From: a virus
Lineage: Duplodnaviria; Caudoviricetes
Virus record (IMG/VR): IMGVR_UViG_3300005973_000002
Length of the DNA stretch: 64,000 bases
Reading direction: 5' to 3' (one strand)
The position numbers were made by a program, and so were the translations under genes. Below, piece after piece: positions 40,726 to 57,684 of this stretch. The notes under the pieces were generated by a model. That model did not search any database, was not told the DNA's origin, and saw nothing but the letters and a program-made list of their open reading frames with translations. Numbering within the stretch: the first letter of the stretch is position 1; every line of letters begins with the position of its first letter.

Positions 40726-43700
40726 CTAAAAACTTTGCGTACAAAAAGTCTCTTTTGAATTTTCGGTCAAAAAATATTCATGCCAATAAGCTTCGCCATT
40801 TTCATTAACAAAAGGAGTTACATCAAGCAATTTACGACCAAGCGTGTCAACAAAATAAAGCTTCTCACCAAGCAGTATCAGCCATGGGTTGTGTAAATCA
40901 TAGTAATTTATTGCTCGAAAATCTTCACTAGAAGGCTTGAGGTTGATGACCATGAAAAGCGTGTTGGAAAGTACCTTTTTTCCAACTTCATCTCTGTTGC
41001 ACGCCACTGGATATACCGTAGCAGTATTGCAGAACCTGAACAATTTCCCAGGTTTCATGATTACCCCATCAAAACTTACAAAAGATCGTCGTCATCATCA
41101 TCTAATGACTCTTCCGATTCAACGTTGACAGTGAGCCCCATATCTTCCAAATCAGAAATGAGCTGCTCTAAGTTTTCTTCATACTCGCCATCATCCATTT
41201 CATCATAATTGATTTCAGTTTGAACCATAAGCGACACTAGCATCTTTTTCATGAGTTTCTCCAAAGTTAAACAAATCTAAGAAATTGGTTATCAAGACTT
41301 GATATTGTACATTTGTTCGTATTTTTGTTTTTGTTCTTTGGTCATATCCTGGTATCTACGAACTGTCTTACCCCTGATGAACTTTCCATGATTTTCATTC
41401 CATCGAATGGAAGGCTCGTCGAAGGACCCAACGTAATACAACTTCTCAGACTCATCAAACTTAAACATAGTCTGATCAGAATTAAAACGACCAAAAATTT
41501 TAACAATTTTTATTTTCTTGTTTCCTTTTTGATGCTTGGTCTTGAATTTGATGCCAGCTCGCTTGAGCATTTCAGTGAATTGTTTAAAATCAGTCATGCT
41601 TAAAAAACAAAGTTAAGTGCTATAAATTTGGCTTGATCACCGAACCAAATAACTGGATGTTTGCCGTCTTTGATTGGCCAAGGAGTATTGTTTAGGTGTG
41701 TTCTAATCAGATCAAGTTCGGAACCATTGGCAACAACCATAATCTGCTCTGCATTCAGAATAAATTGCCCAGGGCCCGGTTCTTCCTTTTGTTTTTCAGT
41801 CTTTTTTGATTTAAGGATGTCAGCTCTAAATGGATTTTCTTCTCCCGCTTCCCAGGAGAAGGTAACGGCCTGATTAATTTCGTCTGTGGACATCTTTCTA
41901 TGAAAGCGTTTAAGTCTAAGTGCCGAATTAGGCCAAATTTGAACGGTGATGGTCATTAGCCCTTACCTTTGTTAGATGGCGACAATGCCAACAAACGAAA
42001 TTTTCTCATGTCTTTTCTGATTTTTTTAATCAATTTTTGAGTTCTCTTAGAAGGAGACTTGGTAAGAAATCCTCTGCCCCGAAACTTATCATAGTCTGGC
42101 AATCTGGTAAACTGTGTTGCAGTAATGTCAACCACTTCACCAGTTTTACGATGTTTTAAAAGCCAATGTATATCACCCTCATGTCTAAGAGTTCCAGGCT
42201 TCCACTCTGAACTATTGTTACAAAGATGATAAAAAGCTTCAGAAGCAACATAGCAGTGACCTTTCAGTTGATTTGATTCGCCTCTGTATTTGGGCTTTCT
42301 CAAATCATCTGAAAGGTTCTTTTTAATAAGCCTGATTATTGTTTCGTTTTTCACTTCTTTTTTGGAAAGAATTTGCTAAGTCGTCGCATCGTGCTTGCAA
42401 GTTGGCGCATTCTTCGACGACTATCATCATACCATTCACGATCCAGTCGCTCACGTTGGCCCATCTGCTTTACAACCTCATTGAGGAAATCGATTGTGTT
42501 GTGTACGTCTGTAGAAATGTCAATCCACTCTTGAGTAAACTGAACCTCTTTAGCAGTTTTTCGTTCTTTACGTCTCCTTTTCTCTATATCTTTAACAGTG
42601 ACACCCAGCTCTTCGGCCAATTCTTTCTTGCACCTATTGGCCCGCCTTCGCTGAATTTTCAGCAAGTTTTTGCGGTACCATTCAAGACAAAGTTGAAATT
42701 CATTTATTTGTTCAATATTCTCAAAATTAGTATATATTTGCTCGACCCTCGGTATAGAACGGCCATAAACTTTGTTGAGAATGTCTTCAGGAATTTCAGG
42801 GGGAGAACGCAACTGACGAATTTTTCGATTTGCGGGAGTGTCTGCAAGGTCGTTGGTGATTTCCAAATCAGGAAAATCCTCTTTCATCACTGACAAAACA
42901 TGGCGCTTATTAAAACTCCAAAGATTCAACTTTTCGTCAAACCCCCATTTCTGGGAAAAAACCATCCATTCATCTGGCGGATCATCCACATGGCGAATTA
43001 ATCGCCACGGACGTTCTTTGAGCTTTTTTCCAAAGCCTTGCCTGTGAGTTTCAGTCGGATGAAGCTTTAAAACGAAATCACCAACCCGCCGTTCAATATG
43101 TTTTCGATCTGGCCAAGGCGACCAAGGAAGTTCACCAAATTCAGGTCTTGGATTGAGTCTGCAATCTAGGTCATCAAGATTATATGGAATGTGAAATGCA
43201 AAAGTTCTTCCCTCACGGAAGTGAGGCACTTCTACCAATTCTTCTTTGTAGTGTGACACATATCCCCCTAGAGGTTAGGGTTTATTGCTTAGGTTTCGGA
43301 CAAAGTATAGCATGAACCTGATCGCCTTCGAACCCATTGGGCAATTTATCAACATCGTTCTTATCTTCGAGATATATTTCCCAGCAAAATACACCATTTG
43401 ATGTTGTCCCGGAACCAACAGCCCATGCAGACTTTGCTCCGTTTTCTCTGCAATGTTCAAAAAGTCTCTGATGAGGTGCTTTTAGCATTTTCGGATTTAG
43501 TCTGCTCTTTTTCTTTAGCTTTTTCATACTTTAAAGCTCTCTCTGCCGCTCTTTTATGTTCAGAAATGGCATATGCCTCCTGACTAAGAACGGTGAACAC
43601 CAGGGGATATCCTGCCAATTTACCATTTGTCTCTTTCAAGACAACTTCTTTGAATTCACTATTTTCAAGGTAAATTCTCATACGCCTATTACGGCTACCA

Positions 43701-45588
43701 TCGCCTTCAATTGCAGCCCCCCAAGCATCATTACCAATTTTCTTATTGAGGGCGAAGAATGCCTTTTCCCAATCTTCTAAGTTTTCGAATTTGCGTCCAT
43801 CCATCAGCTGTCCATATTTTTTTCTTTTAAGCCAGCAAACACTGGATATCCGTCTACTTCCTTGGGAAGTGCTTCTACCAATTCACGGGAGTAGAGTTGC
43901 GCAGCAATCGCATATTTTCCGTTGGAAAGATTTATAGTGATATCAAAATCGGCTACTTTCTTCTTAAAGTGTGCCAAAAAAGCTTCTTCTAGTTTGCTCT
44001 TTGCCTCTTGTACGCCAACAATACTATTGTTCATAATCAGCTCAACTTGTCTGGGTCAAATGGCTCATACTCAATTTGAGCCCTTGCCACCTGGCATTTA
44101 CCTGCGCAATAATACTTTTTCCAAATATCTCCACTTTCTTCACCTTTACCGGACAAGGTAAAAAGAATCATTGGATACTTGGTTGAAAGTGCCCTCATAT
44201 CTTCATCGTGTCGATACCACTTTATGCTATCGCCGTAACCTTTCGCAACTTCCTTAATTATTTCCCACTTTTCATCCTTGGCAAGCTCCTCTTCAAAGAC
44301 CGATGAAAAACGATCCTCGTGAGCCAGAAAGCGGTATTCCAATTCGTAATTTGTATAATATCCCATTAATTCATATCTCCGTGGGCTGGGATTTCTCCAG
44401 TTGCCATTATATGTTCATAAATGGCGTTCTGTACGGCTTTTTGATAACGTTCAGTTATTTCTTTTTGGGCTGCTTCTTGTTTACGAGTTTCGGCCTCGAT
44501 GTTTGCCTTATACTCATCAAGAATTTTATTAAGTTTTTTTGTAAGGAATTTTGGCGAAGTATACACGCTAGTCAAATATCCCAAAATAAACGAGAAAAGT
44601 CCAACAACTACAGTTATTAGAATATAAATCATCAGTTGGCTTCCATGTGACCCTTTTCGATAAGTTGAAACCTTCTCATTTCTTCATGATGGCGATTGGA
44701 TTCTTTCATACAAGAATTCATTCCAAAAAACATCATTGAAACAAGTCCGATTAGAATTGTTCCTCTTGTCAGAGTTCCAATTATTTCTCCTGCGTCAATG
44801 TTCATTTTCCGACTCTTCCGTTTTATATTGTTTACTGCTCCAAACTGGTCTAAAACCTTCTTCCACAATCAAACACTCTGCCTTTAGCCATGCTTCCTCA
44901 AAGGAAAATCGGGTTCTCGAAAGAAAATCGTCAGTTCTTGATGAAGGCATGGGCTCATATTCAAACTGACCTTTTTTGTTCAGTACGTACATGTTATCCA
45001 TGACAATCACCCATTTATCCGGCCCACGCCATTCAATGCCAACTTGAGGCTGAATGCCCTTTTTAACCTGCTGTTCTCTTTCAGCAAGAACATTTGTTCT
45101 TGCGCATTCGAGCATCTTTTCTGACTGCGCTTTAGACATAAAATTCTCCTCGGTCATTGTTTCCACCGGTCGAAATAACCTCTAAACCACGCTTCTCACA
45201 ATAAGACTTTACTTGCGAGTCAAATTTCTTGGTAATCTTCATGACTCCATTTCGATCAATTCTTGAAGAAGCGTCAAAAACAAGTCGATCAGACCGAACG
45301 TCAATCGGTTCCATTTTTATCCCTCGCTTCAAAGTAAATGTCCATTAGGTACATCAGCTGTTCTCCATTGTCACCATCGCCACCTACCGCCCAACAAAAA
45401 TAGTCGTCATTGAAAATGAAATCTAAGGTGGCAATAGCTTCCATCAGAGCTATGGATTCTGGATGATGCTCTGCTCCAGTTTCCCAGCGTTTGTTAACAT
45501 CGGTTTCAATATTAACAAGGCTATATGGAACAGTTTCGGCAAGTTGCTTCTGCCAATATTCTTTTTTAAGAATATCTTCTGCTTTCAT
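40726..45588 (-). CDS. Run of about 14 hypothetical ORFs (including 41956-42354, 42351-43259, 44037-44366, 44795-45166, 45301-45588)
   Basis: Dense coupled ORFs; 42351-43259 shares the basic helix motif of the 9.8-11.5 kb paralogs. Confidence 0.55.
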
Positions 45589-45610
45589 GACAAGTCTTCG
45601 TTGAGGTTAA

Positions 45611-45694
45611 TACCCAGGGTGGGACTCGAACCCACAAGGGCTTGCGCCCGGAAGATTTTGAATCTCCTACGTATGCCAATTCCGTCACCTGGGC
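45611..45694 (-). tRNA. trnL: tRNA-Leu (anticodon CAA)
   Basis: GCCCAGG/CCTGGGT acceptor, GGAGA-TTCAAAA-TCTTC anticodon arm, long variable arm, GTGGGTTCGAGTCCCAC; CCA not encoded. Confidence 0.93.
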
Positions 45695-45697
45695 ATG

Positions 45698-47270
45698 CTA
45701 CTTAGTTTTTTTTGTTGCCGAAGCCAGTACATCTTCGAAAATTTTCAGTAGAGTTTTTGAAGATAAACCTTCATCATTTTCCATATCATATGGTTCTTTT
45801 GAATCTGTTAAAGGAGACAACTTATCAGAAAGTTTTTTCTCGGCTGCTGCCCTTTCTTCAGCTCTGATTGCCATTTCACGGCAAGCTAATGCAAAAGCAT
45901 CTTCTATCTTGGTTTTGTCAAGAGACACGCCAGACAGAACAAAGCGTGTTGCCACATCCGGGTCCATTTTTTCCATGCATGCTTTGATAAAAGCAGCGTC
46001 AAGATCTTGAACATCATCTACAAACTTCATATTGATATGAATATACCCTCTCTTATATGTGTATTTATTACTCTGCCAAGATTTCGAACATATTCTCGAT
46101 CTCTTCTTTAATCTTGGCTTTTTGCTGAGACCTGATCATGTATCCCCATTTGCGCTGGGTGGTGCGCATAATATTGACCCATACAGCCTTTTCGTCAGTT
46201 AGGAGCTGCCCTCTAACGTAAACGTAACCATCATCCGCACGAAACTGTGCCGCTTCAACAAACATTACAGTCTTTTCCTTGTGAAGGAACTGATCTGACT
46301 GTGCAAAGGAATTACCCGCTCCAGCACCGCCCTGTAACATAAAGGCATTAAAATTATCTTCACCGCCAGTTTCTACGATATCCTCTTCAAGAGAGTAATA
46401 AAGATCCTGTTTCGTTTTTAGCAGGGTGCCCTTCTTGAAGGTCTTAATCTGCGGAATAATACGAAACATCTTTACTCGGGTTGGCTCGTACTCTTCTTCA
46501 TTCATATAGTACCCATCCTTACCTGTCGTTTTAGACTCCCGTTTATTCCTAGGAATGTCTATAACAATCAAGACTGAACACTTCTATACAGTGGTTTCGC
46601 TTTTATGCTCCTACAGCATAGCATAGCTTGGATTGGTTCTGAACCTGCTCAGGTTTCCTACCGACGTCCAGTAGTTCGAAGCCGTTTTGCCTCCTCAAGC
46701 ATTTCCTCCACAGTCCATCTTTTGGGCTTCGCAGGAGCCTCAGCCTTTTTATGTGTTACGTACGGCTTATTACTTGTAGCCATTTCTTCAAGCTTGCTTG
46801 CCATTTCACAACGATGGCACTGCTGCCCAAAGCCTTTGTGCCCACAAGAAAAACGTTTACGATTGCCACTTGCCATTTATTGTACCCCTACCTTATCTTA
46901 GAATATTAATCTAATTTTCTTTATCGAATTAAGCCCCTGAAATCATCTTTGCAAATGAAATAGCATAAATCCATCCTGTTTCGCTCGGTTCAAAACGAGC
47001 TACAGGCGAATTGCCAATCTTCAAAAAGTGAGGATCCAAACACTTAGACTTGACACCACGATCAAGAATTGATTTATCCTCGTACACAAGGATTTTGTTG
47101 CCACCATGATTGAAACAATCGGGATAGTTTGCTTCAACTACCGCAACCTTGCCAAAGTCAAGTCGTCTTTTTACTTTAAAACTGTATTTGTCAGGATACC
47201 CATCATTCACAGGTGTTCCACCCCAACTATAACTTGGTAAATCATCCGAAAACATTTTTTTGAATCCCAC
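45698..47270 (-). CDS. Four hypothetical ORFs (45698-46030, 46068-46571, 46658-46876 Zn-ribbon-like, 46929-47270)
   Basis: CGH..CHRC in 46658-46876; the others are unassigned. Confidence 0.5.
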
Positions 47271-47272
47271 GA

Positions 47273-47605
47273 TTACTCCGCTTCGGCTTTGGGGTTATCA
47301 ACTGGTTCAGGATCGAGAGTCCATCTCATAAAAGATTGAATTCTAATCTCTTCTCCAAACTTTTTGTTCTGCTCATCCAAAACTTGGATAACCTGTTTTG
47401 AATCATCAAAAAGCCAGGATTGCTCTAGCAGAGCATCAACACTCTCAGGTGCATTACTAGCAATATGCATTAGCATATTATCAACAAAAGTTAAAAACTC
47501 ACTATTTCGTGCAACAAAATCAGTATTGCAAGAAACCTCAATAAGCACGGCAAGACGATTGTTATGGTATTGGTATGTTCGAATTACACCTTCACGCTTA
47601 GTCAT
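47273..47605 (-). CDS. tsf: Elongation factor Ts core-domain fragment
   Basis: REGVIRTY.H..RLAVLIEVSCNTDFVARN.EF, HIAS..P, LLEQ.W..D, FGEEIRI..F.R; no N-terminal helical domain. Confidence 0.8.
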   Translation of the reverse strand: MTKREGVIRTYQYHNNRLAVLIEVSCNTDFVARNSEFLTFVDNMLMHIASNAPESVDALLEQSWLFDDSKQVIQVLDEQNKKFGEEIRIQSFMRWTLDPEPVDNPKAEAE

Positions 47606-47923
47606 TTAATACCTCCGATATGTACCACAAGCCGTTACTTTAGCCAAATTCATTTCTATTTTCCCACTCGATGTGTTTCATATGAAGCACCGGGGTTTTT
47701 TCGCTGACTACCAAGCAAATGGTCATTCTGTGCTTCAGCCAATAAAACAAAGACAACTCCTTGTTTTTGTGTCGGCCGTATGGCTGGAAACTCCTAAATA
47801 AGAGCTTTTCACCTTCTGGTACCGATACTTGATTGTATCTCTCATCAAAATTAGAGAAAGTATGTTCTTTTGTCGTAACATACATTTCACCATATTTGAG
47901 TTGGGTGTATTTTACATATTTTG

Positions 47924-48220
47924 TCATTTGACCACTGCCCAAATAGCATCTTGCGGAACTACAAGATAGTCTATGTCGTCAACCTTTACCTTTAAACCTG
48001 AATGTGGCCTGTACACAACGTTCATTCCAACACTTAGGCGGCCAAGAACATTCAGTTCTGTTGAAACCTTTGGACCGATGGCAACAATAGTTGCTATGTT
48101 CTCATCACGTTGAACAGTTTGAGGAACAATAATCTTATTTTCAATTTTGGATTTATCTTGCTCTTCTCTTTGCTCTATCCTAAGGACGATTTTATCGTCT
48201 GTTGGTCTGAGTTTTGTCAT
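47924..48220 (-). CDS. groES: Co-chaperonin GroES
   Basis: LRPTDDKIV, IIVP, ATIVAIGP, VGMNVVY...G..VKVD..DYLVV...IWAVV. Confidence 0.85.
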   Translation of the reverse strand: MTKLRPTDDKIVLRIEQREEQDKSKIENKIIVPQTVQRDENIATIVAIGPKVSTELNVLGRLSVGMNVVYRPHSGLKVKVDDIDYLVVPQDAIWAVVK

Positions 48221-48525
48221 TTTTGCACCATTATTACTTCTTCGTGCACTTCAATGGGCGGGGCTGTCTTTTCCCATGGCCGACGCATTTCAAAACGAAG
48301 ACGCAACTCGCCTTCTCTCTTTGGCTTTAGAGTGTGTATTAGTTTTATACCACTTCCCACTGTCATGGTGTCTGGGTTGTATGGCTTTACTGCCCGAGCA
48401 TTAACATATTCGAAGTCACCAATCGACATGTGTTGCCAAACATATCCAGTTGAAGCATTTGACTCAAGTATTACCTCTACCATTTCTCCGGCAGAAACAA
48501 ATCTCACATTATCATTATTATTCAT
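48217..48525 (-). CDS. Chagasin/I42-family cysteine protease inhibitor
   Basis: LESNASTGYVW (NPTTGY-like), GSG, EMRRPWE loops. Confidence 0.8.
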   Translation of the reverse strand: MNNNDNVRFVSAGEMVEVILESNASTGYVWQHMSIGDFEYVNARAVKPYNPDTMTVGSGIKLIHTLKPKREGELRLRFEMRRPWEKTAPPIEVHEEVIMVQK

Positions 48526-48724
48526 TCATTTCCTCATCTTGTTCTTTGGTAAAACCATAAGGACAATGTCGGCATAAGCTTTGACAGCAATATCCTCTTT
48601 CCCGGAGGAAGTATGCAGTTAACACTTTTTTACCAGTAAATGGGTCTCTATACCAAAAATTTTTGTTAGCTACTGCGGCTTCATGCAAATTAATTTGCTT
48701 TTGAGTAAGTTTCTTGTTTGCCAT
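48518..48724 (-). CDS. DUF5522-like small Cys-rich protein
   Basis: LTAYFLRERGYCCQSLCRHCPYG. Confidence 0.7.
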   Translation of the reverse strand: MANKKLTQKQINLHEAAVANKNFWYRDPFTGKKVLTAYFLRERGYCCQSLCRHCPYGFTKEQDEEMNE

Positions 48725-48753
48725 TTCAGAATTTACTCCATTGCAAACAAATT

Positions 48754-49434
48754 TTATTTATTGTTTTTGGCTCGTTTAATATAAGAAATAGAGATATCGC
48801 ATGTAACTTCTGCTTTTCCAGCATGGATTTCGATAGCATTGCTATTTTCTTCCAATGCGGCATTTGCTGTCATTGTACGAACAGCCCGACTACGATACTT
48901 TTCATCTTCGCTGTAACGAACAGTCCAACTCCCAACTGTATATGCCTTTGGATCTTTTCCTAAAACCTTGCACTCAGATTCAAAACGCTTTTGACATTTA
49001 TCGAATGCTTTCTTGAGTGCTTGTGTTGAAAGCTCAGATTTGTTTTTTACATCAAACGTTGGTTCGTCTACTGTTACACCTGTAATATTTGTCAACGAAT
49101 CATGAATTTTGCTAACTTTGTCCAACTCCGACGTGTGAAAAACCATCCCATAGTTAGCCGTGTATCCAACGAGCTTGTGCTCTCCTGAGCGGTGTTCCCA
49201 TTCTCGTTTTGGTGCGACGCTAACGTTGGTTCTAAGATTCTCAACAGCACCTTCTTCTTTGTAGGACTCATATAGTTCTGTCATTTTAGACACTACAGTC
49301 TTTGAAGCTTCCTTTGCTTCCTTACCAGTTTCGCCCGTGGCTGAGGCCGAAGCCACGAAGCGAGCCATGTCAAAATCAGCTACAGCTGCCCCTTGAGCAG
49401 AAACAGACGTAACAAACTTATCGTCATTTCTCAT
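48754..49434 (-). CDS. SIMPL/DUF541 domain protein
   Basis: VSAQG.A...D.A, GY.ANY, F.V......ALKKAF, final VTCDISISY strand. Confidence 0.65.
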   Translation of the reverse strand: MRNDDKFVTSVSAQGAAVADFDMARFVASASATGETGKEAKEASKTVVSKMTELYESYKEEGAVENLRTNVSVAPKREWEHRSGEHKLVGYTANYGMVFHTSELDKVSKIHDSLTNITGVTVDEPTFDVKNKSELSTQALKKAFDKCQKRFESECKVLGKDPKAYTVGSWTVRYSEDEKYRSRAVRTMTANAALEENSNAIEIHAGKAEVTCDISISYIKRAKNNK

Positions 49435-49457
49435 TTATAATCCTTTCGTATAGCTAC

Positions 49458-49486
49458 ACTATACCACTGATCAGTACGTGACTAAA
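49458..49486 (-). promoter_or_regulatory. sigma70-like promoter
   Basis: TTTAGT (49486-49481), 17 nt, TGG-TATAGT (49463-49458); AAAGGA SD follows. Confidence 0.55.
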
Positions 49487-50282
49487 CCACTGGGGCAATA
49501 ATCTTAATCGTCTTGTTAAGTCTTAAACGTTTCCATTTTTGTTGGCCAACTCCGTAAGGTTTTGTTGTCCAAGCCTTGTATCGGTGAAAACCATCAATTA
49601 CTCGAAATCCACCACCCTTTTTAGGAATTGCTACAATGGCAGGGTACCAACCTTTGGTGGAATTCCATAATCTATTTAGCAACTTATTGCTTCCAAGCCC
49701 ATGCCAAGGGCAAAACCAGACATATTCTTGATATATCGAATTTGAGCATCGCTTTAATATTTCTTTATCAGCATATACTTCTTCAACAGGTACTTCAATT
49801 AGCTTCCAGCTTTTATACTGTTCAACTTCGGGTAACAAGGAATCGTATTCCTGCTCAAGAACAAACCTAACTCGCTCGGAATTTGATCGTTTATTAAATT
49901 CCTCCACCCGTTCCAAAAGAACAACCTCGGCTCCTGGTTTAGCAAAGACACCTTCAATTTCGTCTCCGTAGTAACCACCACAAGTCTCAACTACGAACAA
50001 ATCATCAACGTTTTCAAAAAGTTTTTTCAAAAACCTCACAGCCAATGCAAAGCCCAATTTTCCTTCGTTACCTTGACCATCTTGAAAAAAAGTTTCGGCC
50101 AAGCCGACAGCGCCAAAGACTGTTATCGGCTTGATTCGAGTGCTTTCAATGGTGCCGCATCGACAAATCTCATCACAACCATATGCATTGCAATCGTGAT
50201 AATAATCAGCTTCAACATGGAGACGATCCCGCCAATCACCTGACAGATTGAGAACAATTTTTCCTTTGTTTTCCTTGTTCAT
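49482..50282 (-). CDS. Hypothetical protein with C-terminal ParB/Srx-like motif
   Basis: PAIVA..GFRVIDGFHRYKA. Confidence 0.55.
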   Translation of the reverse strand: MNKENKGKIVLNLSGDWRDRLHVEADYYHDCNAYGCDEICRCGTIESTRIKPITVFGAVGLAETFFQDGQGNEGKLGFALAVRFLKKLFENVDDLFVVETCGGYYGDEIEGVFAKPGAEVVLLERVEEFNKRSNSERVRFVLEQEYDSLLPEVEQYKSWKLIEVPVEEVYADKEILKRCSNSIYQEYVWFCPWHGLGSNKLLNRLWNSTKGWYPAIVAIPKKGGGFRVIDGFHRYKAWTTKPYGVGQQKWKRLRLNKTIKIIAPVV

Positions 50283-50327
50283 TGATTCACCTATTTTAAA
50301 TAAAACTGGGGAATATGTACTAAACAA

Positions 50328-50366
50328 AAGCACACCTGTGCAGGTGACACCTGTGCAGGTGTGCTT
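50328..50366. repeat. Tandem duplication of the palindrome CACCTG-TG-CAGGTG inside a larger inverted repeat
   Basis: 14-mer at 50333-50346 and 50348-50361, flanked by AAGCA/TGCTT. Confidence 0.85.
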
Positions 50367-50389
50367 GGGATTAATTCAATGCAAACTAA

Positions 50390-51367
50390 TCACTGACCCA
50401 TGTTCATGATTAGAGGAGTTTGCTGATCCCCGCCACCAAGAATCACAGTGCGAGTATTTTCATTGGTTGTAATATCTCTGGTAGCATCGATTGCACGAAG
50501 CCGTAGAAGTTCGGGCGTAATCGAGCGAGAAAGGATTTCATTGGCTTCGGCTTCTGCACGGGCACGAATCAAGCGTGATTCTGCGTCTCTGTTTGCTTGA
50601 ATGATAGCAACACGACGCTGTCCTTCTGCCTCGGCAGTTGCACGTTCTGCTTCCTGTTCGGCGGTACGAATTGCCTGCTCACGCTCGTTACCCTGTTGAC
50701 GCTGACGCTGAACCGAGGCGATAGACTCACGAATTTCAGGCGGGAGCGCAATATTACGTAGTTGCACGTCATCAATTTGAATAGAATATGATTCCAAATT
50801 CCGCTGTTCAAGTGCATTAGAAATGCGACGTCGAACAAGTCGCACCATTTCACGTCCAAGCTCATCACGACTCGTGGAAACCGCAGCTACGGCATCATAT
50901 TCTCGCACAGCTTCACGGACAGCAGTGCGAACTGAAGTTTCAACAACTGACTGTTGATAATTCGGCATATATCGTCGGACGCCCGGCGCCTGGCCTGAAT
51001 TAAGATGGTAAAGAACCGTAACATCGAGTGTCATTGACAACTGGTCAGAAGACATAGCGTGTAGCGCAGATACCCCAGCCATTGTTATATTTTGCGTCTG
51101 TATGGACATTTCATCAACTGTTGCGAAGGGATTTACAAAATGAAAACCCTCATCTAAAGTATAATTCTGCACAGAGCCAAAAACAATTGGTACACCTATA
51201 TGACCAGTCTGCACCTGAACTGCGGACGCTAATCCAAAAAACACTAACGATAGCACCAGACCACCAGCTGCACCAAGTCTGGTAAAATTAGCTGCATCCT
51301 CTAGAAAGAAACTGACAACAAATGCGCCAATAGCCAAGAAGGCTAATACAATTGCTACATAAATCAC
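50390..51367 (-). CDS. SPFH/prohibitin family membrane protein
   Basis: N-terminal TM helices, GFHFVNPF, DVTVLY, IDDVQLRNIALPPEI, AEAE coiled coil. Confidence 0.9.
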   Translation of the reverse strand: MIYVAIVLAFLAIGAFVVSFFLEDAANFTRLGAAGGLVLSLVFFGLASAVQVQTGHIGVPIVFGSVQNYTLDEGFHFVNPFATVDEMSIQTQNITMAGVSALHAMSSDQLSMTLDVTVLYHLNSGQAPGVRRYMPNYQQSVVETSVRTAVREAVREYDAVAAVSTSRDELGREMVRLVRRRISNALEQRNLESYSIQIDDVQLRNIALPPEIRESIASVQRQRQQGNEREQAIRTAEQEAERATAEAEGQRRVAIIQANRDAESRLIRARAEAEANEILSRSITPELLRLRAIDATRDITTNENTRTVILGGGDQQTPLIMNMGQ

Positions 51368-52224
51368 GATTATTATCCTCCGTCACCTATATGGTGATTC
51401 TTTGTTTGTTCCACGTTTTGCTAGTTCTTCATTCAGCATTTTAAGGTTATCCTTAAGAGAAGCAGTAGTTGACTGCTCCAAAATAGTCAGACGTTTTAGA
51501 CGTTCTGAACGCTTTTTTAACTCGGTCGAACAGACCCAGCCAAAAATAACTCCACAAACAAACGTGGCACTAATCAAAATTGTTACAAGCATATCAAGTC
51601 TCATTTATATCTTGAGATTATCTTCATGAATTCATTGCCAAGCTTGGTAGCAAGCACTAAGCCAACAGCAATCGCTATCAAAGCAACTGACCCAGCACCG
51701 ATTGTAATTCCAGTCCAAAATGTTAGTTCTGCTTCAAAAGCAGTTCCAAAAATCTTTGAGAAGACCAACTACTAGCCATATCGTTAAGCCAATAGTAACA
51801 ACTGCGCCAATCAAAACCCCAAATGCAAAAAAGTAACCGCTCATTATTCGTCCTCGTCTAAGTCATCGTAGAATGAAACTTCTCTCTTGACAAACCTGAT
51901 AATAGATTCGCCATATGACCCCCTGTTTCCAGCGAGGCCCAACTTAATTGTCTCCTCTTCGCTCTCTTCTACGAGAAGATTAATTTGAAATCCTTTACCT
52001 ATCACAATTTCTTCCCTTTGGTCGAAACACCATACGTTAGCCTTATAAGAGTACGCAATTGTCGGTTTATAACCCAACCAAAAATTCCGGCTACAACTGC
52101 GACAGTAGCCGCTCCAGATGCAAATCCAATCCAGAACATGTTCTACTTATCTTATCGGCCTGATAATATCTTTTAAAAGAATAACCTGAATTACCAAAAA
52201 GCTTTGAGTATGCATCTTTAAGAT

Positions 52225-52776
52225 TCATTGAATTTCTCCGAGTGCTAACTTGAGGATATAACGAGTAATCTCTCGGTCTTCTTCCCTGCGCTTTTGCTGT
52301 GCGTAATCCAATCCAAGTCTGTTGTAGTCCTCTTCATCCAATTTCGAAACCTTTTTGTGATATCTTTTTACCTTGTTTTCAAATGAAGTGTAATGTTCGG
52401 TTGGATTGACCAACGACAAAAATGCTTCATTTTCTCCTCGGCGCCAACGATTTGTTGTGGTGGATGCGGTACAAGATATAACCTTGCAATTAGGCCAGTT
52501 TCTAGCGCCCGCCATGCACAATAAATCTGCACCTCGGGCACTTACTGCCTTTTGCTTATATTCGCTTCCAAGCTCTTTACCTTTGGGAGACACATAAGCT
52601 CGATAAATAAAACTCTGGCTTTCCTCGTATGAATATGGCACATGAATAGCATGCAAGATCCTACTTGCACCAAGAGTCTGGGCGAGTTGATGAATACCAA
52701 TTCCACCACCAGTTACCACAAAAGCAAGTTTGGGACCTTGGTAACGATGTACGAAATCATCAAATACGTCTTGCAC
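52225..52776 (-). CDS. CinA/PncC-like domain protein
   Basis: VVTGGG..GASRIL....VPYS..AVS..A...CTASTTT.R.RRG resembles the CinA-like N-terminal domain of bacterial CinA-NMNAT-like fusions. Confidence 0.6.
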   Translation of the reverse strand: MQDVFDDFVHRYQGPKLAFVVTGGGIGIHQLAQTLGASRILHAIHVPYSYEESQSFIYRAYVSPKGKELGSEYKQKAVSARGADLLCMAGARNWPNCKVISCTASTTTNRWRRGENEAFLSLVNPTEHYTSFENKVKRYHKKVSKLDEEDYNRLGLDYAQQKRREEDREITRYILKLALGEIQ

Positions 52777-53656
52777 ACTTTTCTCGCAATCTTTCCAGTT
52801 TTTCGTCTAGGCTTCGAAGGTAGTCTAATCCATACGGACCATTTTCTAAACCTTCATAAAGATGCTGTGGTAGGTCGTTTTCAATTTCTTTACAACAAGA
52901 ACCAATGCCCAGCGCCATGGCCGCAATTGAATCTACGTCGCCCGTATAATCAATACACTCTTTAAGGCATTCGCTCAAAGAATTATTTCTCAATACTGAT
53001 GAAATTGCTGCCTTGACACAGGGAATAGCATCACTAGTACAACGTTTTCCTACCGGCCAAAGATCTTTTTTATCGTTGAAAATTCTACTTGAACCACTAC
53101 CAAGTACAAGGAAATCAACCAAATTATTCTTTTTGCCATCATTGTAAAGAAAATAGTGTGTAGCCAAAGCAACTGCTTGCGAGGAAGCAATTGCATCAGG
53201 CGTATCGTGAGTCACTTGAGCTTGCATTCTAGAAAATGTTAAGACTTTATAAACGTTCGGTAGGTATCCGATCGAACACGATCTCATTGCTGCGCCGCAT
53301 TTATTTGACTTCTTCGACAGCTTGGCAAGCAACTCTTTACCAGACTCAACTTGATCTAAGATAGCTTGAAAACGACGTGAATATGCATTTCTTGCATCAC
53401 GTTTATACACCTCCACCCATTTGTTTGCGAGTTTGAGCGGAAGTGTATTTGGATCAAAATGGTCGTTTTCCAAAAGATACTCTGTTACACCAATTGACAT
53501 CTAGGTGTCATCTGTATATGAACCTGCTGGCAAATGTCCTGGAAGATTGTGCGGATAATATGTACTCAAATCATTTTTGATCTGGGTAAGTCGCTCAGGT
53601 TTTGCAAACTCAAAACCTCCTCCATAAGCATCCCCAATTCCGATTTTCACCAACAT
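52760..53656 (-). pseudogene. ADP-ribosylglycohydrolase (ARH/DraG family) with in-frame TAG at codon 52 (53501-53503)
   Basis: AGGAG SD, ATG 53656, GDAYG, YTDDT*M, GAAMR, QVTHD, GDVDSIAAM; both parts in one frame. Confidence 0.85.
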
Positions 53657-53713
53657 GCCATTCTCCTACTTGTTACAAATGAGCAAAGTTCAACGAATCG
53701 GACTTTATCTATC

Positions 53714-54175
53714 TCAACTAGCATGCCTTACCCAATCTTTTTCAAATGCTGCCTTTAAATCTTCATAATCTTTTCGAGGCATAGAAGATTTTACCTTTTG
53801 AAGGATAGCTGCTGCGTGCCTTGATTTCCCAAGGACTTTCTCTTTTGCCGAGAAATAAAGATTTGTAGGAACGATAAATGGAAGCCAAAGTGGAAGCGTG
53901 GGCAATGAGAACAAAGCAACGCCTATGGCTCCCGAGCCCATATTTTCCTTATTAATAATAAGGCTCGAACAAGTGCTGTTTATCCCTTGGCTTTCAATGG
54001 CAATGACATATTGGTTGCCCTTTTTATCTGAAAGATAAAAAGAATCTAAACCAGTTGTCTTGTTTTTCTTGCGTTCAACAAATTTAAGTTTTGGAATCAT
54101 TGGAATGTCGGCCCATACAGCCCAGGCTCCAAAAAGTATAACACCTGATAGAATTGCCGCTTCTTCAAAATTCAT
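53714..54175 (-). CDS. Putative membrane protein
   Basis: Two hydrophobic segments. Confidence 0.5.
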   Translation of the reverse strand: MNFEEAAILSGVILFGAWAVWADIPMIPKLKFVERKKNKTTGLDSFYLSDKKGNQYVIAIESQGINSTCSSLIINKENMGSGAIGVALFSLPTLPLWLPFIVPTNLYFSAKEKVLGKSRHAAAILQKVKSSMPRKDYEDLKAAFEKDWVRHAS

Positions 54176-54269
54176 ACTAACCTACTTTCCTTCGTAGGAC
54201 GACGTCCTACAGCGCACTTTATATAATCTTTCAAGATTTCTTTGGCTTTCTCGGCCTCATAATTTTCTA

Positions 54270-54872
54270 CTATTTGGGAGCCACCTCACGGAAATTGGTT
54301 AGCATTGAATTTCGTACCGGTTTCCATTTTTCTTCGTAATGCTGCCAATCTTCACTCAAATCATCCATTATTTCTTTAAAAAGATGATTAACTTCGCTGT
54401 ATCTAAAAATAGATCGTGAAGTTGCAATCTGGATTCCGAAGCTAATGATTCTGATTGAGTGCCACAAAGACTTCTTGCCTCGCTCAAGTTCTTTTTCACG
54501 ATCATACGGCGAAACAAATTTTTTCTTAGCTTTGACCCAGGAATGACTAGACTTCTCTGAAAGAGAGTGCCTTAGTCTAGCTTTATCCAGTTTAAACTTC
54601 CAAGGAACATCAGGTTGAATAAGAACCTTGTCACTTGGAAGATGATAGCACTCCAAGGCCATAATGTGATGTTCATCTAACAAACGTTGGAAATGATTTG
54701 GAGTGAGATACCTGATATTAATCAAACCCTTGTTCATTTCGCCTAGACGAACCTGATCCTTTATTGCGACATAGTCCCAATCTGAATCAGAACGAGCAGT
54801 GCCATACACTCTGCTCCCAAAAGGATAAAGTGCATAGTAACTGTCCTTAGGCAATTGAGGTTGATGTTGCAC
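54270..54872 (-). CDS. Pol-beta superfamily nucleotidyltransferase
   Basis: YPFGSRVYGTARSDSDWDYV; helical C-terminal domain (KSLWHSIRI). Confidence 0.85.
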   Translation of the reverse strand: MQHQPQLPKDSYYALYPFGSRVYGTARSDSDWDYVAIKDQVRLGEMNKGLINIRYLTPNHFQRLLDEHHIMALECYHLPSDKVLIQPDVPWKFKLDKARLRHSLSEKSSHSWVKAKKKFVSPYDREKELERGKKSLWHSIRIISFGIQIATSRSIFRYSEVNHLFKEIMDDLSEDWQHYEEKWKPVRNSMLTNFREVAPK

Positions 54873-54873
54873 A

Positions 54874-56460
54874 CTAACCTCGATATCGATTAATCAGGGA
54901 CTCCACCTCAGTCTGGAGTAAATCACTTCTTCGACCCGCAGAAAATGGCATTTCATCGAATTCACGGATTACACGAGCCTCACAGGTCATGAAATCATCA
55001 GTGAAGCCAGGGCCGAAAGGTTCATCAGAAGTGCCATCGTAATAGGTAACCAATGCATCATCACCAAGTTCGCCAGGTGCCGCAAGAGTGACCCCAGAGG
55101 TAAGGGCAATATCATCACGGAGAACCATGCATTCTGGGAGAGTCTGCTTACCAGGAGAATTGCTCAACTTGATAACTGGACGATCGTCGTTGCCGACAGC
55201 ACAGAGAGCAAATTTGGTGCTCATGTGGTCCCTGTTGATATTGTTACGAAGATGCCCGCCAATACTGAAAATACCACATCGCCATGGAACAAAACCGGCC
55301 GCAAGAGCTGCGTCGGTAATTTGAAGAACACTATCAAACGATTCACCGTTACCAACAATAAATCGAAGCGTGGTAGAAACATGACGTGTGACACCATCAG
55401 CACACAAGTGCTCAGCCATAAGCCCAGCCTGATGTGCCTTTTGTAGAGTACCAATCACCATATCTGTCGAATCGCCTGAATCAGGACGGGCAACAACGGT
55501 TCTTCCAGAGCCATCCGCCTGAGCCCTAAGGGCAAGGGGGATAAGGTGTTTCTCAAGCGCAGCCCAATAATCATAACAATCACCAACCATGCTGAGTAAT
55601 TCGTGATTGTCAGCAGTATCGTACATGTTCTCATAACAGTCGCCTTCGACTGCATAACCCTGCACGATGCGATGCGCAAGAGCTTTCACCGAAGAGCCAA
55701 AAGCAGCTGGTGCGCCATTTTTCCAGTTCTGGAAAGCAGCACGGAACGTGTCCGTACCAAACCAGACATAGTTGTGAACCCGACCCACCAATTCCGATTC
55801 CATTGGAGATGCTGCTGCCCTGTCGCCGAAATCATGAATCATGAGTCGGGCAAAAAACATGCACTCCTCGTCGCTAACCGAGTCAGGCTCAAATTTCCTG
55901 ATGAGATTGTAGGCATACTTCAAAAAGTGTCGAGCGGCGGTCAAACGCTCCGTGGCAGCCCAAACATGCAGCAGGGTGGACTCGAACCAAGGAACCAGCG
56001 GTCCAAACCCAGGCTCTGTAGCCTCCACCCTGAGGAATGGCTCGTGCGGATAAATTACAGAGCCTTCGGGCATTCCAACGACCTTGAGTGGAAGGTAGCC
56101 TCCGTATTCCTTGACGACTCGTCGCCACATTTCCTCAGGAAATTCGAAATCGTCAAAAGATCCGTCGTACTTTGCCTTTCGGCCCTTCAAAAATTCGATA
56201 GTCTCATCGATTTCGGAATTGGTGATCGGATCGTAAAAAAGCAAGTCGCAAAGCTGTTGCAAACCAGCAAAGACAATACGCTGGTCTTCAGGCGAATAAA
56301 ACGGCTCATGTGCATGAGGAAACTTCCTGAAAGTACCGTAATACTTGGAATTTTCCGTAGCCTCTTGGCTCTCGAAGGTAAATCCGTTAATGGTGTAAGC
56401 GTCACTCCAGAGCATTCTGGGTGTTCTATGATATCTTCTTGCGGGTAGTTTCTTTGCCAT
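54874..56460 (-). CDS. nadV: Nicotinamide phosphoribosyltransferase-family enzyme
   Basis: SDAY, PHEP..RVE, FES.L, IHDFGDRA, FGTDT, DCYDY, VVARPDSGD, IGG.L...INRD, KLS..PGK. Confidence 0.85.
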   Translation of the reverse strand: MAKKLPARRYHRTPRMLWSDAYTINGFTFESQEATENSKYYGTFRKFPHAHEPFYSPEDQRIVFAGLQQLCDLLFYDPITNSEIDETIEFLKGRKAKYDGSFDDFEFPEEMWRRVVKEYGGYLPLKVVGMPEGSVIYPHEPFLRVEATEPGFGPLVPWFESTLLHVWAATERLTAARHFLKYAYNLIRKFEPDSVSDEECMFFARLMIHDFGDRAAASPMESELVGRVHNYVWFGTDTFRAAFQNWKNGAPAAFGSSVKALAHRIVQGYAVEGDCYENMYDTADNHELLSMVGDCYDYWAALEKHLIPLALRAQADGSGRTVVARPDSGDSTDMVIGTLQKAHQAGLMAEHLCADGVTRHVSTTLRFIVGNGESFDSVLQITDAALAAGFVPWRCGIFSIGGHLRNNINRDHMSTKFALCAVGNDDRPVIKLSNSPGKQTLPECMVLRDDIALTSGVTLAAPGELGDDALVTYYDGTSDEPFGPGFTDDFMTCEARVIREFDEMPFSAGRRSDLLQTEVESLINRYRG

Positions 56461-56571
56461 GCGGCCTCCTATGGAGCCAGACTAACACTAAGTGGTGGGC
56501 GTGTAAAGCCCAAAAGCTCTTAGCTTTATCACCACTTGAGTTAGTTTACCATAAGTTGGCTAGGATTTGAA
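56461..56571 (-). promoter_or_regulatory. Promoter plus structured 5' leader of the NAMPT-family gene
   Basis: TTCAAA (56571-56566), 17 nt, TGG-TAAACT (56548-56543); leader folds into AAGTGGT/ACCACTT, AAAGCT/AGCTTT and GGGC/GCCC helices, plus GGCTCC/GGAGGCC over the SD. Confidence 0.6.
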
Positions 56572-56898
56572 CTAGACTTTAAAGCTCGACCCGCAGCCGC
56601 AAGTCGACTTTGCTTTAGGGTTGATAAATTTGAAACCAGCACCCATTAGGCCATCTACATAATCAATGATTGAACCTTCTATGTAAGTCATCGACATCAT
56701 ATCAACAACAACTTTTATTTCGCCAAATTCAAAGACATGGTCAGTGTCATTAACATTTTCCTCTTCTTCAAAAAAGAGATCATGGGTATATCCAGAACAT
56801 CCACCACCCTTAATTCCTGTACGAATTATTGGCGTCAAATCTTCCTTTTGGGCGATTTCTTTAACCTTATCTACTGCTTTATCAGTTAGTTCTAACAT
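56572..56898 (-). CDS. iscA: Fe-S cluster assembly accessory protein (IscA/HesB/ErpA family)
   Basis: LTDKA, GIKGGGCSGY, VVDMMSMTYIEGSIIDY, FINPKAKSTCGCGSSF. Confidence 0.92.
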   Translation of the reverse strand: MLELTDKAVDKVKEIAQKEDLTPIIRTGIKGGGCSGYTHDLFFEEEENVNDTDHVFEFGEIKVVVDMMSMTYIEGSIIDYVDGLMGAGFKFINPKAKSTCGCGSSFKV

Positions 56899-57684
56899 GT
56901 GTCTTTTACTCGCTTTCTTGATTTAGACGGAGGCTTCATAATCGAAAGTGAAGACAAAAAATCGCTAATATCAATCCAAACATTACCACCACCAATAATG
57001 CAAAACTGATAATATTCTGGAAACTTATCGTGCCTTTCCAAAAACATCATCTTAGAGTTTTTTGGAACCGTGGTCAAGATCTGCTTAAAATAATGCCAGG
57101 TTTTATATGATCCACGCTTGCCAGGTTTTGTTGTCCGTGCAGCATTAATTTCGTCCAACGTTTTAACGAGCGTTCCTTGCTTCATGAGCATAAAACTATC
57201 TAGTTTTGGAAGTCGACCACCATTTTGGATGTACCGTAATGTGAAATCTTTGTTTTTATTAGCAAGTTTACGGCTATAGCCGGATTTTGAAAGGTTTATT
57301 GCCCTCGTGGTAATAGCTTTATTAAGCATTGTTTTTCTTTTTTTGTTAAACATATCAGCAAAGCGAGCAGTCACTCAAATGTTCTCTAAACATGTTTATA
57401 GCTTCGTCTACAGCTTTGTAAAGCTTATCATGAACACTTGTCTTAAATGAACAAGCAGGTTCATTACCAAGTTTTGACTTGGTCCAAATGGTAATAGAAA
57501 ACTTATCATTCGGCAATTTGTTCAATTGCCATCCAAAAGCCGAGTCTAATTCACCAAATTTATCAGAGAGATTCATTGAATTAATTATTCTTCCTATTTT
57601 ATCTTGATGTTTAATCAACATCAACAATCTTGCCTTGAATGAGTGCTTTATCCTGAAACACGTCATCGAAGAATGGAATAACAA
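56892..57684 (-). CDS. Two hypothetical ORFs (56892-57374 SH3/KOW-like; 57355-57684)
   Basis: KQGTLVK..VPKNS..NVWID pattern in the first. Confidence 0.5.

What the first reader, a model, noticed from the sequence alone, without database searches (positions are those of the whole stretch)
52225..56460. NAD+/ADP-ribose gene run: NAMPT-family enzyme, Pol-beta nucleotidyltransferase, ARH and CinA-like domain
Seen: five co-oriented genes in the order NAMPT-family, nucleotidyltransferase (starting 2 nt after the NAMPT stop), membrane protein, ADP-ribosylglycohydrolase, CinA-like domain. No HxGH-type NMN adenylyltransferase or PRPP-synthetase-like gene is in the window. Known: phage NAD reconstitution pathways pair a NAMPT-like enzyme with an ADPR-PP synthetase (NARP1) or with Nmnat (NARP2) to counter NAD-depleting defences such as Thoeris, DSR and SIR2 systems. 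Inference: this may be a different variant in which a Pol-beta-fold enzyme adenylates NMN, while ARH and the CinA-like domain recycle ADP-ribose and NMN.
Basis: partly seen in the sequence, partly recalled or inferred. Interest (0 to 1): 0.75.

Follow-up and report, generated by a model that had tools for sequence, protein, structure and literature searches.

The report
Decayed phage NAD-salvage gene cluster
A roughly 461-kb phage from a salt lake carries an NAD-rebuilding gene cluster of a known type (Nampt plus Nmnat) that has lost its Nmnat gene by deletion; the neighbouring Pol-beta enzyme is probably not a replacement for it, while an undescribed CinA-like partner protein of the lost enzyme is the more interesting part.

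Summary
The five co-oriented genes exist, all on the minus strand, and all four family calls hold. Three corrections apply. The ARH is split by an in-frame TAG at 53501-53503. The membrane ORF has no homologue in relatives.

Close relatives (NAMPT 89% identical) have the order NAMPT, NTase, intact ARH, CinA-like, Nmnat. More distant ones have NAMPT, CinA-like, Nmnat, with no NTase or ARH. This is therefore a NARP2-type module in which about 0.57 kb of the Nmnat gene was deleted.

The NTase coexists with a canonical Nmnat wherever it lies within a few kb of NAMPT and the neighbourhood is annotated. It is unlinked from NAMPT in other phages and is present in one phage with no NAMPT. Its nearest folds are HalB and ANT(4'). 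The idea that it adenylates NMN is not supported.

The CinA-fold protein lacks the PncC Ser/Lys residues. It always precedes the Nmnat, is fused to it in two lineages, and has no match in deposited phage genomes.

The ARH TAG replaces CAG (Gln). It may be read through by a UUA-anticodon tRNA encoded about 3.3 kb beyond the window.

The parts
54874..56460 (-). Nampt (NadV-type nicotinamide phosphoribosyltransferase), 528 aa, intact
   Evidence: Pfam NAPRTase 2e-12 and NAMPT_N; phrog_448 1.8e-42; NF006629 1.6e-47, below its cut-off. 89% identical to relatives, dN/dS 0.02-0.03.
54270..54872 (-). Pol-beta-fold nucleotidyltransferase with a helical C-terminal domain, 200 aa (GS...DxD with E74)
   Evidence: phrog_388 3.5e-11. 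AF2 pLDDT 95.9. Best PDB matches are Hailong HalB (E 2e-6, TM 0.5-0.58), then ANT(4'). Family invariants G19, S20, D31, D33, E74.
53714..54175 (-). 153-aa ORF with two hydrophobic segments; occupies the variable slot and is not a conserved member of the run
   Evidence: No Pfam, PHROG, PADLOC or NCBIfam family. No tblastn match in any relative's locus.
52760..53656 (-). ADP-ribosylglycohydrolase (ARH/DraG superfamily), 298 codons, with an in-frame TAG at 53501-53503 (codon 52)
   Evidence: Pfam ADP_ribosyl_GH on both halves. TAG sits in TDDT-x-M. Relatives have CAG (Gln) there and an intact 297-298 aa gene; dN/dS 0.087 against L012.
52225..52776 (-). CinA C-terminal-fold protein ('p183'), 183 aa; partner of the Nmnat in relatives
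   Evidence: AF2 pLDDT 94.6; the 21 best PDB matches are all CinA superfamily. Always precedes the Nmnat and is fused to it in P0143 and P0233. PncC Ser/Lys not kept.
52091..52228 (-). Stub of the deleted HxGH Nmnat gene (45 codons; only the first 18 are homologous)
   Evidence: It starts with the same ATGA overlap to the upstream gene as in relatives. The first 18 aa are 67% identical to the start of the L012 Nmnat. Homology resumes at the last bases of the L012 Nmnat gene, so about 574 nt are missing, including the H-x-x-H motif.
56572..56898 (-). HesB/IscA-like Fe-S biogenesis protein; conserved upstream neighbour of NAMPT in relatives
   Evidence: PF01521 in the precomputed calls. Homologues lie next to NAMPT in L002, L012-L015 and near it in L006.

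Best explanation
This is a NARP2-type NAD+ salvage module (Nampt plus an HxGH Nmnat) of a roughly 461-kb phage from a hypersaline lake. The module has been enlarged and, in this phage, partly dismantled.

The core shared by the clade is Nampt, a CinA-C-terminal-fold protein, and a NadD-like Nmnat. The last two are translationally coupled, and fused in some phages. In the window's subclade a Pol-beta NTase, a few variable small ORFs and an ARH lie between Nampt and the CinA-like gene.

In this phage a deletion of about 0.57 kb removed the Nmnat body, leaving a 45-codon stub. The ARH acquired CAG>TAG at a Gln codon.

Inferred steps:
- Nampt still makes NMN from nicotinamide and PRPP.
- The adenylation step must come from the host (NadR/NadM, or PncC-NadD-NadE) or from a gene in the roughly 400 kb I could not read.
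- Full-length ARH is made only if the TAG is read through, possibly by the phage's own UUA-anticodon tRNA.
- The NTase is not the NMN adenylyltransferase. It is a widespread large-phage enzyme that tends to sit in NAD/ADP-ribose islands, and its substrate is unknown.
For: Shown:
- Gene families and folds.
- Relatives L012-L015 (NAMPT 89% identical) have NAMPT, NTase, intact ARH, p183 and a 210/211-aa protein with PGSFNPLH-x-x-H. That protein matches Pfam CTP_transf_like and NCBIfam NadD-type models weakly, below cut-off.
- L002-L006 have NAMPT, p183, Nmnat without NTase or ARH.
- The stub keeps 18 N-terminal codons, and homology resumes at the 3' end of the L012 Nmnat gene.
- The same sequence, with 0-2 mismatches per locus, is found in assemblies of five samples, so neither the TAG nor the deletion is an artefact of one assembly.
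- TAG corresponds to CAG in two relatives, and ARH dN/dS is 0.087.
- p183::Nmnat fusions occur in two lineages.
- The NTase occurs with a canonical Nmnat or NadM in the window's clade, in LR745206 and in Xanthomonas/Stenotrophomonas jumbo phages. Elsewhere it is unlinked from NAMPT or occurs without it.
- A tRNA with anticodon UUA lies about 3.3 kb beyond the window end, on the same strand.

Literature: 94% of phages with a KVP40-type Nampt also encode an Nmnat.
Against: - About 400 kb of the genome could not be searched, so a second Nmnat, NadR or NadM cannot be excluded. The word-based search for the relatives' Nmnat family found no member on a contig of this phage's size, but that is a weak test.
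- Nampt, NTase and p183 are all intact here, which is compatible with a working pathway that uses a non-canonical adenylyltransferase.
- NTase-NAMPT linkage recurs in four distant lineages, so the NTase may have an NAD-related role that I cannot name.
- Reading of UAG by a UUA anticodon rests on textbook behaviour of ochre suppressors. It was not tested for this tRNA.
Confidence: 0.75

Rival explanations
1. One reading: the Pol-beta NTase adenylates NMN, so NAMPT plus NTase form a new NARP variant. This could hold generally, or as a back-up that allowed loss of the Nmnat in this phage.
For: - The NTase start lies 2 nt after the NAMPT stop.
- The NTase lies within about 5.5 kb of NAMPT in four distant lineages.
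- NAMPT stays under strong purifying selection although the cognate Nmnat is gone here.
- The catalytic GS/DxD/E residues are invariant.
Against: - Where the NTase lies within a few kb of NAMPT and the neighbourhood is annotated, a canonical Nmnat or NadM is also there. Vibrio phage 2.275.O, where the two genes are 5.4 kb apart, was not checked for one.
- The NTase also occurs far from NAMPT, and in a phage with no NAMPT.
- Other contexts are CoaD/CoaE or an RNA ligase.
- The nearest folds, HalB and ANT(4'), transfer nucleotides to hydroxyls, not to a phosphate.
- From my own knowledge, no Pol-beta-fold NMN adenylyltransferase is known.
Confidence: 0.07
2. The whole run is a relic in this phage. 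After loss of the Nmnat the remaining genes contribute nothing to NAD+ supply and are on the way to decay; the ARH nonsense codon is the next step.
For: Two independent lesions lie within 1.5 kb: the Nmnat deletion and the ARH TAG. The p183 protein has lost its fused or coupled partner.
Against: - NAMPT, NTase and p183 have no frameshifts or stops, and the ARH has only one lesion.
- Host enzymes commonly convert NMN to NAD+ (PncC/NadD/NadE or NadR; PMC3855486).
- A suppressor tRNA that could read the TAG is encoded nearby.
Confidence: 0.1
3. NTase and ARH form a separate insert that acts on ADP-ribosylated or damaged nucleic-acid ends, or on ADP-ribose-derived signals. They have no part in NAD+ synthesis and sit in the NAD cluster only because counter-defence genes accumulate there.
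For: - NTase and ARH are absent from L002-L006, which keep NAMPT, p183 and Nmnat.
- In Xanthomonas/Stenotrophomonas phages a NADAR-type domain (annotated DUF1768 and COG3236) sits in the same NadM-to-NAMPT stretch as the NTase.
- In Bacillus phages the NTase lies two genes from a T4-type RNA ligase.
- The LR745206 homologue has a weak RlaP hit, E 0.016.
- NADAR genes next to NadM/NadV are noted in PMC9503650.
Against: No substrate evidence of any kind. In my survey only the window's clade has the ARH near the NTase. This is compatible with the best explanation rather than opposed to it.
Confidence: 0.35

Closest known systems
NARP2 (Vibrio phage KVP40 NadV Nampt plus NatV Nmnat; Osterman et al. 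2024, bioRxiv 10.1101/2024.02.11.579819)
   Same: A Nampt-clade phosphoribosyltransferase is clustered, in relatives, with a HIGH-superfamily Nmnat in a large phage. The presumed role is rebuilding NAD+ against NADase defences.
   Different: The Nmnat of this clade is a short NadD-like protein without a Nudix domain. It is coupled or fused to a CinA-fold domain instead. In this phage the Nmnat is deleted.
PncC / CinA C-terminal domain (NMN deamidase; E. coli PncC, T. thermophilus CinA 4ct8/4uux)
   Same: Same fold (Foldseek probability 1.0, TM 0.6-0.7). The equivalents of PncC G33, S46, Y56, V78-S79 and S/T103 are kept.
   Different: The positions of PncC E28/S29 are hydrophobic and K61 is S/L/T/V/I across 160 family representatives. 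The family has its own invariant set: G23, R110, R112, G114, N116, K145, R163, D167. E. coli paralogues with such changes are reported inactive as deamidases (PMC3855486).
Hailong HalB and aminoglycoside 4'-nucleotidyltransferase ANT(4')
   Same: Two-domain architecture (Pol-beta NTase plus helical bundle); these are the best structural matches for the NTase.
   Different: Only 14-17% identity. The NCBIfam HalB model scores 15.5 bits against a cut-off of 190. There is no conserved membrane partner next to the NTase. The gene is phage-encoded.
NadM-NADAR-NAMPT neighbourhoods of jumbo phages (PMC9503650; XacN1, Xoo-sp13, RAS14)
   Same: An NAD+ synthesis pair is interleaved with an ADP-ribose-processing enzyme, and the same NTase family is present.
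   Different: Those phages use NadM (Nmnat-Nudix) and a NADAR-type domain. The window's clade uses a NadD-like Nmnat, a CinA-fold protein and an ARH.
ARH/DraG superfamily (MJ1187, ARH3, DraG)
   Same: Pfam ADP_ribosyl_GH, including the TDDT-x-M metal-binding motif. The closest solved relatives of the relative's intact copy are 1t5j, ARH3 and DraG.
   Different: Interrupted here by a TAG at the x position. The substrate is unknown.

Membership tests
NARP2 (Nampt + Nmnat) | Nampt-clade nicotinamide phosphoribosyltransferase | tested here: met
   Pfam NAPRTase/NAMPT_N and phrog_448. The best cultured-phage hits are annotated Nampt. No tree separating Nampt from Namat was built.
NARP2 (Nampt + Nmnat) | An Nmnat (HIGH-superfamily NMN adenylyltransferase) in the same phage | tested here: not met
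   Only an 18-codon homologous remnant is left at the ancestral site. No CTP_transf_like elsewhere in window 231-64000. The other roughly 400 kb of the genome could not be searched.
NARP2 (Nampt + Nmnat) | Rebuilds NAD+ and overcomes NADase defences | not testable with these tools
   Needs infection or enzyme assays.
NARP1 (Adps + Namat) | Prs-like ADPR-PP synthetase next to the PRTase | tested here: not met
   No Pribosyl_synth or Pribosyltran family among the precomputed Pfam calls for the window. Relatives pair the PRTase with an Nmnat instead.
NARP3 (PnuC + NadR-like) | PnuC transporter and NadR-like bifunctional enzyme | tested here: not met
   Neither family appears in the window's precomputed Pfam calls. 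Definition taken from PMC13464706.
PncC NMN deamidase | CinA C-terminal fold | tested here: met
   Foldseek against PDB and Swiss-Prot models. A family HMM aligns to E. coli PncC residues 32-103.
PncC NMN deamidase | Active-site residues listed in PMC3855486 (equivalents of E. coli E28, S29, T31, G33, S46, Y56, K61, S/T103, G104, R) | tested here: not met
   Equivalents of G33, S46, Y56 and S/T103 are kept. K61 is replaced by S/L/T/V/I. The extrapolated E28/S29 positions are V/I/L/A.
Hailong HalB | Sequence membership (NCBIfam NF051895) | tested here: not met
   15.5 bits against a cut-off of 190, N-terminal 50 residues only. No PADLOC hit.
Hailong HalB | Paired with the HalA membrane effector | tested here: not met
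   The adjacent 153-aa membrane ORF has no family hit and no homologue in relatives. The ORFs after the NTase in L012 and L014 have no hydrophobic segments.
ARH/DraG ADP-ribosylglycohydrolase | ADP_ribosyl_GH domain with an uninterrupted reading frame | tested here: inconclusive
   The domain is complete, but an in-frame TAG sits at codon 52. A tRNA(UUA) that might read it is encoded nearby; read-through was not tested.

The most novel reading that the evidence does not exclude
The CinA-fold 'p183' family is an unrecognised functional partner domain of phage Nmnat enzymes. It has 617 clusters at 50% identity in metagenomes and no match in deposited phage genomes. It is always placed just upstream of the Nmnat and is fused to it in two lineages. 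On this reading it binds or converts a pyridine or ADP-ribose nucleotide by chemistry different from PncC, taking the place that the Nudix domain has in NadM. That would define a three-component variant of NARP2. Its retention here after loss of the Nmnat would then point to a second role.
Probability: 0.4. Interest if true: 0.6.

Novelty: new variant of a known kind. Interest (0 to 1): 0.45.

Why it matters
NAD+ reconstitution is a general way for phages to escape NADase-based immunity such as Thoeris, DSR and SIR2-HerA. Three points follow from this locus.

1. The NARP2 theme has a lineage in which the Nmnat works with, or is fused to, a CinA-fold domain that lacks the known deamidase residues. 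This is a concrete and cheap biochemical target.

2. A conserved Pol-beta NTase recurs inside NAD/ADP-ribose islands of very different large phages, always next to a canonical Nmnat where I could check. It should not be annotated as an NMN adenylyltransferase.

3. A natural Nmnat-deletion variant with an intact Nampt offers a test of how far such phages depend on host NMN-to-NAD+ conversion.

The finding does not support a new NAD-synthesis chemistry.

Tried and rejected
- No whole genome is held for the window. The 461-kb ENA contig cannot be searched through its locus. An exact 42-mer of the window is absent from IMG/VR.
- Genome-wide TAG recoding: the only pair of same-frame ORFs joined by a TAG that also shows homology running across the stop is the ARH. 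The window's own tRNAs are Gln-CUG and Leu-CAA.
- Regulatory RNA: no Rfam family in 51300-57000 at E up to 1. The 111-nt leader before NAMPT folds no better than 12 of 200 shuffles, z -1.67. Promoter-like and terminator-like sites are at or below the shuffle expectation.
- PADLOC gives nothing for any of the five proteins.
- A Hailong-like NTase plus membrane-protein pair is rejected, because the membrane ORF is not conserved.
- Complex prediction of NAMPT with p183 gave no answer (score 0.00). This is evidence neither for nor against binding.
- hhalign of the small p183 alignment against E. coli PncC alone was weak: E 0.034, 34 columns. The larger family HMM was needed.
- The Hailong paper (PMC12360457) is not held, so HalB's priming tyrosine could not be compared.
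- The sequencing runs are kept as contigs only, so read-level polymorphism at the TAG was not examined.


Full report
**What is there**

All genes of the finding lie on the minus strand.

- NAMPT (54874-56460, 528 aa) matches Pfam NAPRTase (2e-12) and NAMPT_N, phrog_448 (1.8e-42) and NCBIfam NF006629 (1.6e-47, below its cut-off).
- The next ORF (54270-54872, 200 aa) starts 2 nt after the NAMPT stop. By sequence it matches the Pol-beta NTase core only weakly (Pfam 0.009; phrog_388 3.5e-11).
- A 153-aa ORF (53714-54175) has two hydrophobic segments and no family hit.
- The ARH is not one ORF. A 51-codon ORF (53501-53656) and a 246-codon ORF (52760-53500) lie in the same frame, separated only by TAG at 53501-53503 inside the TDDT-x-M motif. 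Both halves match Pfam ADP_ribosyl_GH.
- The last ORF (52225-52776, 183 aa, here called p183) has no Pfam, PHROG, NCBIfam or PADLOC hit.

**Where the window comes from**

No genome is held for it. Exact copies of p183 lie on assemblies of five samples, the longest contig being 461,030 bp. The fetched stretches differ from the window at 0-2 positions each. The runs that hold the DNA are labelled hypersaline lake metagenome, 2017. The window holds tRNA genes, aminoacyl-tRNA synthetase fragments, RNA ligases and homing endonucleases. It is part of a very large phage genome.

**Relatives decide the interpretation**

IMG/VR loci with NAMPT at 66-79% identity (L002-L006) have NAMPT followed by a p183 homologue. 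L004 has an R2K ATP-grasp gene in between. These loci have no NTase, membrane ORF or ARH. In each, the gene after p183 is a 208-220 aa protein with P-G-S-F-N-P-L-H-x-G-H that hits Pfam CTP_transf_like.

Closer relatives were found through p183 homologues (L012/L013 and L014/L015, NAMPT 89% identical). Their order is NAMPT, NTase, two to three small ORFs, intact ARH of 297-298 aa, p183, a 210/211-aa Nmnat-type protein, a few small ORFs, then Band_7. The 210/211-aa proteins best match NadD/Nmnat models of NCBIfam, below cut-off (TIGR00482, 6.8e-6).

In the window, the gene after p183 starts with the same ATGA overlap. Its first 18 residues are 67% identical to the start of the L012 Nmnat, and then it diverges and stops after 45 codons. 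DNA homology resumes at the last bases of the L012 Nmnat gene (window about 52177, L012 about 7168). About 574 nt are therefore missing, including the H-x-x-H motif.

No other Nmnat-like or Prs-like gene is in the window. This rests on tblastn with four Nmnat queries and on precomputed Pfam calls for window 231-64000.

The reason is a deletion in a module that ancestrally had one.

**The ARH stop**

Both close relatives have CAG (Gln) where the window has TAG. The rest of the gene is 87% identical to L012, with dN/dS 0.087. This is a single C>T change in an otherwise well-kept gene. No other gene in the window shows a TAG-split with homology running across it, so general TAG recoding is not indicated.

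Following two earlier notes of this scan, I fetched the DNA beyond the window end. ARAGORN and Rfam both call a tRNA with anticodon UUA, about 3.3 kb past the window end and on the same strand. It is flanked by a PTH2-like gene and a 296-aa GluRS/GlnRS-type catalytic core, with a tmRNA further on. The tRNA has a short variable loop and G73; its amino-acid identity is undetermined.

Classical ochre suppressors also read UAG by wobble. That is textbook knowledge and was not tested here. The ARH may therefore be made at full length at some rate, so I do not call it a dead gene.

**The CinA-like protein**

An AF2 model built on 18 homologues has mean pLDDT 94.6.
- Its 21 best PDB matches are all CinA-superfamily structures (4ct8, 5kvk, 2a9s and others; E down to 7e-7, TM 0.6-0.7).
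- All 30 best Swiss-Prot models are C-terminal domains of CinA-like proteins or MG115.
- The only PDB sequence hit of the profile is also a CinA, at E 0.5.

An exhaustive profile search finds 617 clusters at 50% identity. A family HMM of 160 representatives aligns to E. coli PncC residues 32-103.

Among the residues that PMC3855486 lists as the PncC active site:
- The equivalents of G33, S46, Y56 and S/T103 are kept.
- K61 is S/L/T/V/I.
- The positions that extrapolate to E28/S29 are hydrophobic strand residues.

The family has its own near-invariant set: G23, R110, R112, G114, N116, K145, R163, D167. It is therefore unlikely to be an NMN deamidase of the known kind.

Two members are natural fusions of p183 with a CTP_transf_like domain:
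- P0143 (434 aa) lies in a locus with the same synteny as the window.
- P0233 (363 aa) lies in an unrelated context, with no NAMPT within 5 kb.

p183's tight partner is thus the Nmnat, not NAMPT. tblastn finds no p183 homologue in 50,697 deposited phage genomes. The papers I searched on phage NAD systems do not mention CinA or PncC.

**The NTase**

The AF2 model (37 homologues, pLDDT 95.9) is a Pol-beta NTase domain followed by a helical domain. The best PDB matches are Hailong HalB (E 2e-6, TM 0.5-0.58, 14-17% identity), then ANT(4') and other antibiotic nucleotidyltransferases. It does not reach the NCBIfam HalB model (15.5 against 190 bits).

The family is common on contigs of 300-700 kb and occurs in 59 deposited phages.

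Contexts where it lies within about 5.5 kb of a NAMPT-family gene:
- the window's clade;
- LR745206 (NadM-like, NAMPT, then the NTase 1.3 kb on, on the opposite strand);
- Xanthomonas/Stenotrophomonas jumbo phages XacN1, Xoo-sp13 and RAS14, where it sits between NadM and NAMPT;
- Vibrio phage 2.275.O.

Contexts where it is not linked:
- 122 kb from NAMPT in the 320-kb contig of L006;
- 232 kb away in Salicola phage SCTP-2 and 112 kb away in Bacillus phage FADO;
- present in Bacillus phage pW2, which has no NAMPT-family gene;
- next to CoaD/CoaE in L017, and with no recognisable neighbours in L016.

The linkage is recurrent but not obligatory. In the first three linked lineages a canonical Nmnat or NadM is also in the neighbourhood. 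I did not check Vibrio phage 2.275.O for an Nmnat. That pattern is the opposite of what a replacement enzyme would show.

**Mechanism, with steps marked**

Shown: a Nampt / CinA-fold / Nmnat core is shared by the clade; NTase and ARH are additions in one subclade; the Nmnat is deleted and the ARH carries a nonsense codon in this phage.

Inferred:
- Nampt makes NMN.
- Conversion to NAD+ depends on host enzymes or on a gene outside the window.
- p183 normally acts with the Nmnat on a pyridine or ADP-ribose nucleotide.
- ARH expression depends on stop-codon read-through.
- The NTase acts on a hydroxyl acceptor that is still unknown.

**Comparison with the known**

Of the known systems, the module is closest to NARP2. 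It is neither NARP1 (no Adps) nor NARP3 (no PnuC or NadR). It differs from KVP40-type NARP2 in using a short NadD-like Nmnat coupled to a CinA-fold domain instead of a NadM Nmnat-Nudix fusion.

**Verdict**

The proposed Pol-beta NMN adenylyltransferase is not supported. The locus is a partly dismantled variant of a known pathway. Two open leads remain: the p183 family, and the NTase's recurrent place in NAD islands.

Noticed in passing
L021:6050-6125 (+), about 3.3 kb beyond the window's end (would be near window 67309-67384), minus strand of the window: tRNA with anticodon UUA (ARAGORN 'tRNA-Stop'; Rfam tRNA 54 bits). It is flanked by a PTH2-like gene (L021:5435-5791) and a 296-aa tRNA-synt_1c (GluRS/GlnRS core, L021:7411-8301). 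It may read the ARH TAG.
   Followed up: partly
L021:252-606 (+): Phage-encoded tmRNA (Rfam RF00023, 127 bits; tag peptide ADNAPLALAA), next to an R2K ATP-grasp gene at the locus start.
   Followed up: no
The MFE z-score is only -1.67 (12 of 200 shuffles fold as well), and there is no Rfam match at E up to 1.
   Followed up: partly
window 13124-13648 (-), about 17675-17986 (-), 24331-24774 (-): Further ADP-ribose-related genes in the window according to precomputed Pfam calls: Macro domain, cREC_REC and a small NUDIX. The NUDIX lies next to a Metallophos gene, close to a T4 Rnl1-type RNA ligase.
   Followed up: no
L004:9602-10339; L022:2-316; L021:1-146: R2K-clade ATP-grasp genes recur in or near the NAD clusters of this phage clade. 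In L004 the gene lies between NAMPT and p183.
   Followed up: no
window 42225-51367 (-) and relatives L012, L014, L022: Conserved block downstream of the NAD cluster: Band_7, SIMPL, DUF5522, Inhibitor_I42, Cpn10 and an EF-Ts-like fragment. Band_7 also lies just upstream of the p183::Nmnat fusion in the unrelated locus L023.
   Followed up: no
L033:10326-10441 (Vibrio phage 2.275.O, MG592671.1): This jumbo phage has the NTase 5.4 kb from a NAMPT-family gene. It is also annotated with a tRNA of anticodon TTA about 3 kb downstream of the NTase.
   Followed up: no
L012:525-1064, L014:907-1446: In the closest relatives an HNH endonuclease gene sits between the Fe-S biogenesis gene and NAMPT. It is absent from the window.
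   Followed up: no
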